NCBI RefSeq assembly: GCF_055900595.2
Contig: NZ_CM148325.1
Reading direction: 5' to 3' (one strand)
Length of the DNA: 64,000 nt
How positions within the stretch are numbered: position 1 is the first letter of the stretch; each line of letters begins with the position of its first letter. The position numbers were made by a program. Shown one piece after another: positions 42,401-45,400 of the stretch.

Positions 42401-45400
42401 ATCGGGCAGAGTTCTGCATCAAAGCGATGTGTCGTGTACTTCGGGTTGCCCGCAGCGGCTGGTATGTCTGGCTCAGGCGTCGTCACCAGATGAGCCTTCG
42501 CCAACAGTTTCGGCTCACCTGCGATGCCGCTGTCCATAAGGCATTCTTTGAGGCAAAGCAGCGATACGGTGCTCCCCGCCTTGCTGACGAACTGCCGGAG
42601 TTCAATATTAAAACCATTGCCGCCAGCCTGCGTCGTCAGGGGCTGCGGGCGAAAGTTCAGCCCGGTCAGCTACCGTGCACATGGCCTGCCCGTATTGGAG
42701 AATCTGCTGGAGCAGGACTTCAGTGCCAGAGGCCCGAACCAGAAGTGGGCGGGTGACATCACGTACTTGCGTACCGATGAGGGCTGGTTGTATCTCGCAG
42801 TAGTCATCGACCTGTGGTCACGCGCCGTCATTGGCTGGTCGATGTCACCGCGAATGACAGCACAACTGGCCTGTGATGCACTACAAATGGCGTTGTGGCG
42901 GAGAAGACGCCCGGAAAGCGTCATTGTTCATGCGGACCGTGGTGGTCAATACTGTTCAGGGGATTATCAGGCGCTGCTGAAGCGACACAACCTGCGTGGC
43001 AGTATGAGTGCGAAAGGCTACTGTTATGACAATGCCTGTGTGGAAAGCTTCTTTCATTCGCTGAAGGTGGAATGTATCCACGGGGAACGCTTTAGCAGCC
43101 GGGAAATAATGCGGGCAACGGTGTTTAATTATATCGAGTGTGATTACAATCGCTGGCGTCGTCACAGTGCCTGTGGCGGTCTCAGCCCGGAACAATTTGA
43201 AAACCATAATCTCGCTTAGGGCCGTGTCCACATTACGTGGGTAGGATCAATTTTCCTGATGACCCCATCGACATAGTATTTTTTCAAAGCAAGAATTGCC
43301 TTCTCGCTATGTATTCCTGATAGCTTGATCAGGATATCAAAGTCTCTTTCAGATATATTCCCCTTTGTCATGTGTCACTCCATGAATCAAATTTCATAGT
43401 AATCAATCTTTCTTTGATCGACTTATAGATAATAAGATCAGAAATGATAAAAAAGTAACGCATATTTCTTCTCGTCATGTCTACTTATAAAATTCAAATG
43501 AACTAACCTGAACTACTTACACTGGAATATCATTATATTGGAATAATTATAAAACTGAACAAAATGGTCAATGTAATCTGGTTAATTTATAAATATTTAC
43601 ATTGCGTGATGATATTTAATTCCAGTGTTAAGTAATGTCACATGCCTATTATTGGTTACTACTTTGTAGGTGTTTTGGTTCGGCGTTAATATCATTGGTC
43701 ATAATCACCTGTGAAAGTTTATTCTTGAAATGTTATAGGTATATTACTTGCAATTAAAAATGAGAAATTTATTATTATTGTGTTTTGCAAATATAATAAT
43801 TAAAAATTTATTATAAATTATGATTAGAATTGACAATATAAAAGAATAATAAAACTCAATATGAAAATAATTATCATCTGGTTTGATACTTTTGCTGTTG
43901 ATTACAGGAATAAAGTGTCAGAATAATATTGTTATTGGGTAAAAAAAGCCTCCACTATATGTGGAGGCAAACCCTTAGATAGTTCTATTGAGGCAAGTAT
44001 GTTATAAATCTGCCTTATCTTTTATAGCATATAAAGATATGTATGCTATATTTTTTTTGAAGAAATTTTTCCAGAAATTACAGTAATACAAGAAATATTA
44101 ACTGGTGTGATTTTTGGATGTTTAATAAGTACAGTGTACTTATATTTTTGTAATAAAGATGAACGCGTCCTTTAGATAAACTGAAAAATATTAAGCATGT
44201 CTCATGTGGTTTTCTGAATCAAAACTCTTTTCAGTCTTTGATTTTTTGTTAAAAACAGGTTTATTACAAGGGTGTTGTTGTGAAATGTGTTTTGGTGTCG
44301 TTGTGATTTTATGGTGATAATGTGAATTTTTATCCTTTCAAGATGGCTCCCTGGACGTTAAATACAGTGGAAATTTATATTAAGATATAAATATAACTAT
44401 TGCGTTATTTAAATTATTGTCTATTACAGCTCCAGTTAATAGAGCCTGAAGTAATTTCTTAGTATTTCATCATAAGCGTTTATCTATCGTCTCTTTCTAA
44501 ATTAACCGGTCGTATTACAAGGTGCTGAATCTGATTAAGGAATGATACTTAGGGGATTATGGCTGACTTAATAATTAGATAACTGATAAATGACTATCAG
44601 GGGGATATCGTTAAGTCAGCCTTTAAAATCAAGCGATTATATAGCTGGTGACTCTTTTCGAAGAGCATCAAGGTAGTCAGCGTACCATTGCATCATTTCT
44701 CGTCTTCCTTCAAGGTAACGAGCATGGTTGTATGTACCACGAATGCTGTTTTTGTCCGTATGTGCAAGTTGCATTTCAATCCATGCACTATTGAATCCTT
44801 GCTCGTGTAGAACAGTACTCATTGTATGACGAAATCCATGCCCGGTAGCTTTTTTGTCATAGCCAATCTTCTTCAAAACCATATTGACGCTTGCATCGCT
44901 GATAGGCCTGTTAACATCATTTCTTCCGGCAAAGATGTATCTGTATCTTCCAGTCAGTTCTTTGAGGATTTGCAGAGACTGGATTGCCTGATCTGACAGA
45001 GGGACGATATGCTCCTTCCTCATTTTCATCCGGGTCGGAGGAACTTCCCATATCTTTTGGGTAAAATCGATCTCACACCATTCCCCCATACGTAATTCTA
45101 CTGTTCTCAGCCCTGTGAGCATCAACAATTTTGTAGCTTCACGGGTTACAATACTGCCGGTGTAGTTTTCGAGTTTGTATAAAAACTCTGGTAGTTCAGG
45201 AGGAAGCAGGAAAGGGTAATGTGTTCGCTTATAGCTTTTCATTGCTATAACCAGATCAGAAGCTGGATTGTATCGTGCCCGACCTGTAACAATGGCATAC
45301 CGAAACACTTCACCACATCGTTGGCGAACTTTATTAGCTAGCTCGCAGGCTCCTCGGCTTTCGATACGCTGAAGAACTGCGAGAAGTTCAAGAGGTTCGA

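What the first reader, a model, noticed from the sequence alone, without database searches (positions are those of the whole stretch)
43250..44636. Truncated PapB-like regulator and 1.3-kb very AT-rich non-coding stretch beside the integrase
A 41-codon fragment resembling PapB/FocB fimbrial regulators runs into the IS3 terminus. The following roughly 1.25 kb is extremely AT-rich with no ORF of 60 aa or more, the kind of DNA typically bound by H-NS. It may be the silenced regulatory region of a deleted fimbrial or adhesin operon.
Basis: inference. Interest (0 to 1): 0.3.

Follow-up and report, generated by a model that had tools for sequence, protein, structure and literature searches.

The report
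Relic of a deleted adhesin island
This is the leftover stump of a fimbria-and-protease island at the argW tRNA gene: a small PapB-type regulator gene stops after codon 40 at an insertion sequence, about 46 kb of adhesin genes found in intact relatives are missing, and the regulator's long AT-rich upstream DNA is left beside the integrase; it is an ordinary decay product.

Summary
A PapB/FocB-family gene fragment (40 codons plus 2 nt, 43250-43371, minus strand) runs into the right end of a defective IS3-family element (42017-43249). The next 1,265 bp (43372-44636) have 28% GC, the lowest of any stretch that size in the window, and no ORF over 40 codons.

Comparison with relatives explains it. 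Rare E. coli strains (1 of 5,426 complete genomes) and Salmonella enterica carry the same argW-integrase-spacer arrangement with a full 76-aa PapB-like gene. It is followed by an AraC-type regulator, a 1,311-aa serine-protease autotransporter, a chaperone-usher fimbrial operon and more. Homology to the window stops exactly at the IS3 end and resumes about 46 kb further on.

So the stretch is the native upstream region of a regulator gene that lost its island. H-NS binding is plausible from composition but was not tested.

Two parts of the spacer are conserved between E. coli and Salmonella:
- the promoter-proximal 250 bp, which hold a 36-codon upstream ORF;
- a roughly 100-nt block ending in an intrinsic terminator.

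Their function is unknown. Overall this is ordinary and of low interest.

The parts
42017..43249 (+). Defective IS3-family insertion sequence. orfA is 42080-42379. orfB is split into 42376-42756 and 42524-43219. The element has TG...CA terminal inverted repeats. Its right end forms the breakpoint in the papB-like gene.
   Evidence: Sequence; ORFs. RefSeq annotation is 'IS3 family transposase, frameshifted'. The flanking triplets are ATC (42014-42016) and ATT (43250-43252), so there is no target-site duplication.
43250..43371 (-). 5' fragment of a PapB/FocB-family regulator gene: codons 1-40 plus 2 nt. The ORF reads on into the IS to a stop at 43216-43218, giving a 51-aa product.
   Evidence: Pfam PF03333, E=1.2e-10, profile positions 19-57 of 91. 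It is identical to residues 1-40 of the intact 76-aa P0018. Homology with intact loci ends exactly at 43250. RefSeq calls it WP_000160236.1.
43368..43478 (-). 36-codon upstream ORF (MTRRNMRYFFIISDLIIYKSIKERLITMKFDSWSDT). Its TGA stop overlaps the papB-like ATG (ATGA). It may be a leader peptide or small protein; this is unproven.
   Evidence: The ORF is open in all 19 E. coli and Salmonella copies compared. By my reading of alignment A1, E. coli and Salmonella differ at 10 nt, 4 of them synonymous, giving 5 amino-acid changes. Some annotators call the 31-aa form a hypothetical protein.
43372..43621 (-). Conserved promoter-proximal block B of the papB-like gene. It contains TTTTATAATTATT (a candidate -10 region) and a GGAG Shine-Dalgarno sequence 6 nt before the ATG.
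   Evidence: 65-97% identity to Salmonella in 40-nt windows, highest (85-97%) in 43372-43500 and about 85% at 43575-43621. The spacer as a whole is 57% identical. Only 4 of 250 columns vary among 13 E. coli copies, against 53 of 727 in the rest of the spacer. A promoter-like site TTGACC-17-AATTAT lies at 43571-43543.
43940..44040 (-). Conserved block A. It ends in an intrinsic terminator: stem-loop 43948-43968 (GCCUCCAC-AUAUA-GUGGAGGC) followed by U7. It could insulate the regulator from integrase read-through, or be the 3' end of a small RNA.
   Evidence: Terminator scan. Hairpin energy -15.8 kcal/mol, z -3.4. 78-93% identity to Salmonella; the stem is invariant and the loop differs. 1 of 101 columns varies within E. 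coli. No Rfam family reaches its threshold. Exact matches in metagenomes all come from this same island.
44111..44519 (.). Hypervariable AT-rich filler. A second such segment lies at 43622-43939.
   Evidence: 0-60% identity to Salmonella in 40-nt windows, mostly 25-55%, with many indels. 6.4% and 8.5% of columns vary within E. coli. No Pfam hit in any of the six frames.
44561..44621 (-). Integrase-proximal nested inverted repeat: GGCTGACTTAA...TTAAGTCAGCC around CTGATA...TATCAG. It starts 15 nt after the integrase stop codon and belongs to the conserved integrase module.
   Evidence: As RNA it folds at -23.6 kcal/mol, z -7.9. The Salmonella version keeps the same nested architecture (-14.8 kcal/mol, z -2.9), with one compensatory change in the outer stem. 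44517-44636 is shared at 89% identity with 29 further E. coli genomes whose argW islands carry other cargo.
44637..45854 (-). Intact P4-type tyrosine integrase of the argW island.
   Evidence: Pfam Arm-DNA-bind_3, Phage_int_M and Phage_integrase. RefSeq calls it a tyrosine-type recombinase.
46003..46077 (-). tRNA-Arg(CCU), argW: the attachment site of the island.
   Evidence: ARAGORN and Rfam tRNA at 63.4 bits. Two 16-17-nt repeats of segments near its 3' end lie at 3938 and 4247.

Best explanation
The stretch is a decay product: the integrase-proximal stump of a composite genomic island integrated at argW.

Shown by comparison. In the intact form the order is argW, integrase, a 1.27-kb AT-rich spacer, a 76-aa PapB-family regulator, an AraC-type regulator, then (convergently) a serine-protease autotransporter and a chaperone-usher fimbrial operon, then further cargo, then a TerB/ATPase/helicase cluster. 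In the window's lineage everything from codon 41 of the papB-like gene up to that cluster, about 46 kb in the one intact complete genome, is absent. An HsdR_N-domain gene (39543-41903) and a now-defective IS3-family element sit at the breakpoint.

Inferred mechanism. The loss was an IS3-associated deletion or recombination, since the IS has no target-site duplication.

Inferred consequences. The surviving 51-aa product lacks the C-terminal half of the PapB fold and is most likely inactive as a DNA-binding regulator. The spacer is the regulator's native upstream region. It holds a promoter-proximal block with a 36-codon upstream ORF, a terminator-containing block that probably stops transcription coming from the integrase, and hypervariable AT-rich filler. 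Its composition makes it a likely H-NS target. It now regulates nothing downstream except transcription into the IS.
For: - Pfam PapB match truncated at profile position 57 of 91.
- The intact 76-aa homologues P0018 (E. coli) and P0014 (Salmonella; 95% identical over the 40 residues) sit in the same fadJ-fadI-yfcZ-fadL-mlaA-yfdC-integrase context.
- Window homology to six intact E. coli loci is 96.7-97.7% and ends exactly at 43250.
- Nothing from the distal part of the intact island is present anywhere in the window.
- The intact island contains an usher, a chaperone, a second PapB-family gene and a Peptidase_S6 autotransporter.
- Window 30565-39056 is 97.9% identical to a segment about 46 kb beyond the papB-like gene in strain Eco_23-2667, in the same orientation relative to argW.
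- The same IS junction is present in 237 of 5,426 complete E. coli genomes. The intact module is present in 1.
- The IS flanks are ATC and ATT, so there is no duplication.
- FocB (PDB 3M8J) residues 26-86 align to residues 2-62 of P0018, so the fragment stops at about FocB residue 64.
- The spacer has no Pfam signal in six frames. Conserved blocks are shown.
Against: - No expression, H-NS occupancy or protein-activity data were available, so 'silent' and 'inactive' are inferences.
- The 51-aa ORF keeps its Shine-Dalgarno sequence, its upstream ORF and its conserved promoter region. RefSeq does not flag it as a pseudogene, so a product could still be made.
- The event was not a clean deletion. 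The HsdR_N gene next to the IS is absent from the one intact complete genome, which has FRG-domain and kinase genes and a partial recombinase there instead. The exact ancestor and number of steps are therefore unknown.
- IS-free junctions exist in single assemblies (P0013/L013, P0005). I read them as secondary IS losses because they differ from each other by a few nucleotides, but this is not proven.
Confidence: 0.85

Rival explanations
1. The spacer is not just a relic. It still carries working small genes: a small RNA ending at the 43948-43968 terminator (block A), and/or a 31-36-aa protein from the upstream ORF, possibly with a truncated PapB-like peptide that interferes with other PapB-family regulators.
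For: - Block A core and block B are conserved between E. coli and Salmonella at about 78-97% in their best-conserved parts, while the rest of the spacer is mostly 25-55%.
- Both blocks are also depleted of polymorphism within E. coli: 5 of 351 columns vary, against 53 of 727 elsewhere.
- The terminator stem is invariant while its loop varies.
- The upstream ORF is open in all 19 copies and overlaps the papB-like ATG.
- The promoter and Shine-Dalgarno regions are intact.
Against: - The conservation was measured mainly among intact islands, where these blocks can simply serve the papB-like gene as promoter, 5' UTR and insulator.
- No convincing sigma-70 promoter was found for block A (and my reading).
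- No Rfam family matches.
- There is no target signal above shuffled controls among the island's translation start regions.
- The upstream ORF has 6 non-synonymous and 4 synonymous nucleotide changes, which is no clear sign of purifying selection. A 36-codon open frame is not rare in this stretch.
- The truncated copies are over 99% identical to each other, so they give no evidence of selection after the deletion.
Confidence: 0.2
2. The stretch is a Pap-type phase-variation switch: a papI-papB intergenic region controlled by Dam methylation and Lrp.
For: - The gene is PapB-family.
- Such regulators typically act on AT-rich upstream DNA together with H-NS and Lrp (review PMC12388093).
- Two GATC sites lie upstream of the ATG, at 43416 and 43436.
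Against: - There is no divergent papI/FaeA-like ORF. The longest plus-strand ORF is 40 aa and has no Pfam hit.
- The two GATC sites are 20 bp apart, not about 100 bp. Both lie inside the upstream ORF and both are lost in the Salmonella orthologue.
- The spacer is three times longer than the pap regulatory region.
Confidence: 0.03
3. The AT-rich DNA is decayed coding sequence, that is, pseudogenes of former island genes, rather than intergenic DNA.
For: It is long for an intergenic region (1,265 bp) and lies in an island rich in IS elements and pseudogenes.
Against: - The intact islands of E. coli and Salmonella have the same gene-less spacer of the same length between the integrase and the papB-like gene.
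- Six-frame translations hit no Pfam family at E<=1.
- No ORF other than the 36-codon one is shared between the lineages.
Confidence: 0.05
4. The IS simply inserted into an intact papB-like gene and the rest of the operon continues on the other side of the IS.
For: This is the commonest way for an IS to interrupt a gene.
Against: - The left flank of the IS (41904-42016 and the HsdR_N gene) has no similarity to the 3' half of the gene in any frame (my translation, compared with P0014 and P0018).
- There is no target-site duplication.
- BLAST of the intact distal sequence against the whole window finds nothing.
Confidence: 0.02

Closest known systems
PapB/FocB family of small fimbrial/adhesin regulators (Pfam PF03333; FocB structure PDB 3M8J)
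   Same: The N-terminal 40 residues match the family model above its gathering score. The intact orthologue aligns to FocB residues 26-86 at E=4e-9. Like other members, the gene sits downstream of AT-rich DNA and in an island with adhesin genes.
   Different: Only profile positions 19-57 of 91 survive. Even the intact orthologue is short (76 aa) and lacks the roughly 25 N-terminal residues of PapB and FocB. It is paired with an AraC-type regulator and is convergent with the fimbrial operon rather than at its head.
TosR and plasmid pMB2 Orf G: PapB-family members not attached to a chaperone-usher operon (review PMC12388093)
   Same: They show that PapB-like regulators occur as stand-alone regulators beside non-fimbrial adhesins. 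Here the nearest structural gene in the intact island is an autotransporter protease.
   Different: No functional data exist for this member. Sequence relatedness to TosR was not tested.
pap regulatory region (papI-papB intergenic Dam/Lrp switch)
   Same: AT-rich DNA upstream of a PapB-family gene.
   Different: There is no papI. The GATC pair is 20 bp apart and not conserved. The spacer is 1.27 kb long and borders an integrase.
Variable argW-dsdCXA genomic island of E. coli (Moritz and Welch 2006, cited in PMC7545054)
   Same: Same tRNA attachment site and the same type of integrase, with mosaic, IS-rich and highly variable cargo.
   Different: The fimbria/autotransporter cargo variant whose stump this is was not found in the two literature searches made. 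The original paper could not be read.
IS3-family insertion sequences and IS-associated deletions
   Same: TG...CA inverted repeats and an orfA/orfB layout. The junction lacks a target duplication, as expected after an adjacent deletion or inter-IS recombination.
   Different: The transposase carries an extra frameshift, so the element is probably immobile. This fits a junction fixed in 237 genomes.
H-NS xenogeneic silencing of AT-rich horizontally acquired DNA (established knowledge)
   Same: 28% GC in a 47% GC window. A/T tracts and TpA steps are about twice, and matches to the H-NS motif about three times, the window density.
   Different: Occupancy was not measured. AA/TT dinucleotides show no 10-11-bp periodicity.

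Membership tests
PapB/FocB family (PF03333) | Significant match to the family profile above the curated threshold | tested here: met
   E=1.2e-10, 41.7 bits against a cut-off of 29.4. The intact orthologue P0018 scores E=6.3e-18.
PapB/FocB family (PF03333) | Complete domain including the C-terminal half | tested here: not met
   Only profile positions 19-57 of 91 are present. The fragment ends at about FocB residue 64, whereas the alignment of the intact orthologue runs to residue 86. Residues 41-51 are IS-encoded.
PapB/FocB family (PF03333) | Genetic linkage to an adhesin or fimbrial gene cluster | tested here: not met
   There are no fimbrial genes beside it in the window. In intact relatives it shares the island with a chaperone-usher operon and an autotransporter.
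PapB/FocB family (PF03333) | DNA binding and regulation of adhesin expression | not testable with these tools
   Needs EMSA or reporter assays.
Pap-type Dam/Lrp phase switch | Divergent papI/FaeA-like gene upstream of the papB homologue | tested here: not met
   The longest ORF in the spacer is 40 aa, and no Pfam family is hit in six frames.
Pap-type Dam/Lrp phase switch | Two conserved GATC sites about 100 bp apart in the regulatory region | tested here: not met
   The only GATC sites are at 43416 and 43436, 20 bp apart. Both are absent from the Salmonella orthologue.
IS3 family insertion sequence | Terminal inverted repeats ending 5'-TG...CA-3' and orfA/orfB with a frameshift | tested here: met
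   Ends at 42017 and 43249. orfA and orfB are, and a weak ALIL frameshift-pseudoknot hit is. orfB has an additional frameshift.
IS3 family insertion sequence | 3-bp target-site duplication from a simple insertion | tested here: not met
   The flanks are ATC and ATT. This is consistent with a deletion or recombination at the IS.
tRNA-integrated genomic island with a P4-type integrase | tRNA gene, adjacent tyrosine recombinase with an arm-binding domain, and a distal repeat of the tRNA 3' end | tested here: met
   tRNA-Arg(CCU). Integrase domains. 16-17-nt repeats at 3938 and 4247.
H-NS-bound xenogeneic DNA | AT content well above the genome average | tested here: met
   28.1% GC against 47.2%, the lowest 0.16% of same-size windows.
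H-NS-bound xenogeneic DNA | H-NS occupancy and de-repression in an hns mutant | not testable with these tools
   Needs ChIP-seq and RNA-seq.
Intrinsic (Rho-independent) terminator | GC-rich hairpin followed by a U tract | tested here: met
   An 8-bp stem with 6 GC pairs, a 5-nt loop and U7. Energy -15.8 kcal/mol. The stem is conserved in Salmonella.
Small regulatory RNA gene | Own promoter, discrete transcript, or membership of a described RNA family | tested here: inconclusive
   No Rfam family reaches its threshold; the best overlapping hit is 31 bits against a gathering score of 99. No clear promoter was found. No transcript data are available.

The most novel reading that the evidence does not exclude
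Conserved block A (about 43940-44040, minus strand, ending in the intrinsic terminator) may be an island-encoded small RNA or 3'-UTR-derived RNA. The upstream ORF and the truncated papB-like gene may also still be expressed. If so, the stump retained in about 4% of complete E. coli genomes, including O26 and O111 EHEC, would keep a regulatory activity after losing its virulence cargo, for example cross-talk with other PapB-family or fimbrial switches.
Probability: 0.15. Interest if true: 0.35.

Novelty: new member of a known kind. Interest (0 to 1): 0.15.

Why it matters
It matters little for mechanism. This is a textbook case of IS-associated erosion of a genomic island.

- For annotation: the 51-aa 'PapB/FocB family regulator' that RefSeq lists in 237 complete E. 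coli genomes is a truncated remnant and should be treated as a pseudogene.
- For evolutionary history: EHEC O26/O111-type and other E. coli lineages descend from an ancestor whose argW island carried, in its intact form, an uncharacterised fimbria plus serine-protease autotransporter module. That module still circulates in rare E. coli, Salmonella enterica and probably Citrobacter freundii.
- For follow-up: the two conserved non-coding blocks are cheap candidates to check in existing RNA-seq data.

Tried and rejected
- Rfam with permissive thresholds over 42000-47000 found only the tRNA plus three sub-threshold chance hits.
- NCBIfam had no model for the fragment.
- A word-indexed protein search with the 40-aa fragment returned only truncated junction variants. 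The exhaustive representative search was needed to find the intact 76-aa form.
- A scan of species-representative genomes with P0018 found no locus.
- A metagenome scan with a 21-nt block A core gave 7 contigs, all the same E. coli island at 98.9-99.9% identity, so no new context.
- A distant DNA search of plasmids gave a single hit, a 1.4-Mb record labelled as a plasmid.
- Six-frame Pfam search of the spacer found nothing.
- An RNA duplex scan of block A against 13 translation start regions of the intact island gave a best energy of -22.7 kcal/mol, against -20.4 +/- 3.1 for shuffled controls, so no signal.
- RNAalifold on block A was uninformative. One of the three inputs had wrong coordinates, and only two diverged lineages exist, too few for covariation.
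- AA/TT periodicity as a curvature proxy showed none.
- The Moritz and Welch 2006 paper on the argW island is not held in the library.
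Full report
**1. What is in the sequence**

The window comes from an E. coli chromosome. Positions 43200-44700 are 99.9% identical to O26:H11 11368, O111:H11 and many other strains.

From right to left the locus reads:
- mlaA, 47338-48135;
- yfdC, 46153-47085;
- tRNA-Arg(CCU) argW, 46003-46077;
- an intact P4-type tyrosine integrase, 44637-45854 on the minus strand, with Arm-DNA-bind_3, Phage_int_M and Phage_integrase domains;
- 1,265 bp of AT-rich DNA, 43372-44636;
- a minus-strand ORF, 43216-43371;
- an IS3-family element, 42017-43249.

The ORF's 51-aa product matches Pfam PapB (PF03333) at E=1.2e-10 and 41.7 bits (cut-off 29.4). It covers only profile positions 19-57 of 91. Forty codons plus two nucleotides are native; the last 11 codons are read from the IS end.

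The AT-rich stretch has 28.1% GC against 47.2% for the window. Only 0.16% of same-size windows are as low, and all of those overlap it. Its longest ORF is 40 codons. Its six-frame translations hit no Pfam family at E<=1.

**2. The junction is old and widespread**

The spacer occurs in 241 of 5,426 complete E. coli genomes, and 237 of them cover at least 80% of it. Nearly all are at least 99% identical, and RefSeq annotates the 156-nt ORF there as a PapB/FocB-family regulator. Every copy whose surroundings I inspected has the IS3-family element at the same place, one of them with an extra ISEc23 insertion.

RefSeq marks the IS transposase as frameshifted. The triplets flanking the IS are ATC and ATT, so there is no target-site duplication.

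A few draft assemblies show other sequences joined at or within a few nucleotides of codon 40. Two of them (P0013/L013 and P0005) are IS-free fusions to the sequence that lies left of the IS in the window. They differ from each other by a few nucleotides. I read them as secondary losses of the IS; this is an inference.

**3. The intact ancestor-like form**

An exhaustive protein search with the 40-residue fragment found a 76-aa full-length protein, P0014, 95% identical over the fragment. Its 90%-identity cluster also holds P0018, identical to the fragment over residues 1-40. Sources name these proteins from Salmonella enterica, E. coli and 'Enterobacteriaceae'. P0018 matches Pfam PapB positions 19-87 and FocB (PDB 3M8J) residues 26-86 at E=4e-9.

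Both proteins are encoded in the same chromosomal context as the window: fadJ, fadI, yfcZ, fadL, mlaA, yfdC, integrase, then a gene-less gap of about 1.2 kb, then the papB-like gene.

In E. coli the genes that follow are:
- an AraC-type regulator of 282 aa (HTH_18, HTH_AraC);
- on the opposite strand, a 1,311-aa Peptidase_S6 autotransporter;
- a chaperone-usher operon with a 174-aa subunit, an 803-aa usher, a 234-aa chaperone, a second PapB-family gene of 97 aa, and six further predicted subunits without Pfam hits.

One complete genome, strain Eco_23-2667 (NZ_CM176497.1), carries this module. It is the only one of 5,426 that does.

**4. What was lost**

Homology between the window and six intact E. 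coli loci is 96.7-97.7% across mlaA, yfdC, the integrase and the spacer. It stops exactly at 43250, the IS boundary. None of the distal intact sequence occurs anywhere in the window.

In Eco_23-2667 the island continues past a second autotransporter and other cargo to a cluster of a 338-aa hypothetical protein, a DEAD-box helicase, an ATP-binding protein and a TerB-family protein. Window 30565-39056 encodes the same four proteins: TerB_N/TerB_C, BrxC/D-like ATPase, DEAD helicase and the 338-aa protein. It is 97.9% identical to that cluster and has the same orientation relative to argW.

About 46 kb separate papB codon 41 from this cluster in the intact genome. In the window the interval is 4.2 kb and holds an HsdR_N-domain gene and the IS. 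So the window's lineage lost the regulator's 3' half, the AraC regulator, the protease autotransporter, the fimbrial operon and more, with an IS at the scar.

It was not a single clean deletion relative to this particular genome, because the HsdR_N gene is not present there.

**5. What the AT-rich spacer is**

The spacer is present, gene-less and of the same length in all intact relatives. It is therefore native intergenic DNA upstream of the papB-like/araC-like regulator pair, not decayed coding sequence.

It is also not the promoter region of the fimbrial operon. That operon is transcribed towards the regulators from about 15 kb away.

Globally the E. coli and Salmonella spacers are only 57% identical, but the identity is very uneven:
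- Block B (43252-43621) is 65-97% identical, highest (85-97%) in 43252-43500.
- Block A core (43940-44040) is 78-93% identical.
- The integrase-proximal 120 bp are about 65-75% identical.
- The two intervening segments are mostly 25-55% identical and full of indels.

Polymorphism among 13 E. coli copies shows the same pattern. One of 101 columns varies in block A core and 4 of 250 in block B, against 27 of 318 and 26 of 409 in the intervening segments.

Block B contains:
- a promoter-like site and a conserved TTTTATAATTATT motif;
- a GGAG Shine-Dalgarno sequence;
- a 36-codon ORF (43368-43478) whose stop overlaps the papB-like ATG. It is open in all 19 copies. It shows 6 non-synonymous and 4 synonymous nucleotide differences between the lineages (my count), which does not demonstrate coding constraint.

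Block A ends in a clear intrinsic terminator on the minus strand at 43948-43968 (-15.8 kcal/mol, followed by U7). Its stem is invariant and its loop differs in Salmonella. Since the integrase is transcribed towards the papB-like gene, the simplest reading is a terminator that insulates the regulator from integrase read-through. A small RNA is possible, but I found no promoter, no Rfam family and no target signal for one.

A nested inverted repeat at 44561-44621 (z -7.9) belongs to the integrase module. It is shared with argW islands that carry other cargo.

**6. The pap-like switch and H-NS**

There is no papI/FaeA-like ORF. The only GATC sites in the spacer (43416 and 43436) are 20 bp apart and are not conserved in Salmonella. 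A Pap-type Dam/Lrp switch is therefore rejected.

The composition fits an H-NS target:
- 28% GC;
- A/T tracts at 22 per kb against 11.6 for the window;
- TpA steps at 120 per kb against 56.5;
- near-matches to TCGATAAATT at 3.2 per kb against 1.0.

PapB-family regulators are described as acting on AT-rich upstream DNA in interplay with H-NS and Lrp (review PMC12388093). Occupancy cannot be tested with these tools.

**7. Verdict**

The finding is real and now explained. It is the tRNA-proximal stump of a fimbria/autotransporter island: a PapB-family regulator gene truncated at a defective IS3-family element, plus that gene's native 1.27-kb upstream spacer.

It is wrong in the detail that this DNA was the operon's own regulatory region.

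The fragment lacks the C-terminal half of the fold, so it is most likely inactive (inference). Nothing here is mechanistically new. The only open points are the roles of the two conserved non-coding blocks and the upstream ORF. Interest is low.

Noticed in passing
L021:3977-18701; L023:8158-25947 (NZ_CM176497.1); L007:10001-20231 (Salmonella enterica): The intact argW island, outside the window, carries an apparently uncharacterised module. It has a 1,311-aa Peptidase_S6 (SPATE-type) autotransporter and a chaperone-usher operon whose major subunit and six other predicted subunits have no Pfam match. It also has two PapB-family genes (76 and 97 aa) and an AraC-type regulator with an N-terminal HTH. 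Proteins at 90% identity or more are shared between E. coli, Salmonella enterica and, for one fimbrial protein, Citrobacter freundii. In the Salmonella loci shown the autotransporter is broken into three ORFs.
   Followed up: partly
L007:9086-9141 and the same place in L006, L008-L011: The Salmonella versions of the spacer contain a perfect (CAAAC)n microsatellite. Its copy number differs between the six genomes: 4 to 10 full CCAAA units by regex, and 11.2 copies by TRF in L007. The E. coli spacer has only a degenerate version. It could be a contingency repeat or just a hypermutable tract.
   Followed up: partly
window 31577-41903: A same-strand cluster that looks like a defence system: a TerB_N/TerB/TerB_C protein (769 aa), a BrxC/BrxD-family ATPase (438 aa), a DEAD/DEAH helicase (732 aa), a 338-aa protein without Pfam hits, and a 786-aa HsdR_N-domain protein. 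The first four are shared with the intact-island genome at 97.9% identity.
   Followed up: partly
window 18238-23073: An autotransporter gene appears to be split by a DDE_Tnp_1 transposase gene (20386-21594). The passenger part carries PATR and VirG-insertion-domain hits (18238-20316). The autochaperone and beta-barrel part lies at 21607-23073.
   Followed up: no
window 3938-3954 and 4247-4262: Two 16-17-nt direct repeats of parts of the argW 3' region (46002-46032). They probably mark the distal end(s) of the roughly 42-kb composite island.
   Followed up: partly
junction at window 43249/43250; proteins P0001, P0002, P0005, P0006, P0008, P0013: Different assemblies join different sequences to the papB-like fragment at or within a few nucleotides of codon 40. 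These include the left end of canonical IS3 (P0001) and two slightly different IS-free fusions to the window's left flank (P0005, P0013/L013). The site has been rearranged repeatedly.
   Followed up: partly
window 44561-44621: A strongly structured nested inverted repeat lies 15 nt after the integrase stop codon (-23.6 kcal/mol, z -7.9). It is conserved in architecture in Salmonella and is shared at 89% identity with 29 E. coli genomes whose argW islands hold unrelated cargo. Its function is unknown; it could be an integrase mRNA 3' structure or a protein-binding site.
   Followed up: partly
window 56100-56450; 48900-49300; 17950-19050: Other short AT-rich stretches in the window, with 500-nt GC down to 25%, 31% and 32% respectively. 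They were not examined.
   Followed up: no
L001:9438-10628 (E. coli O26:H11 11368): In O26:H11 11368 the same integrase is annotated as a pseudogene with an internal stop, and a prophage (torI, kil and other genes) lies where the window has argW directly beside the integrase. The window is therefore not from that strain, and the integrase is intact here.
   Followed up: no
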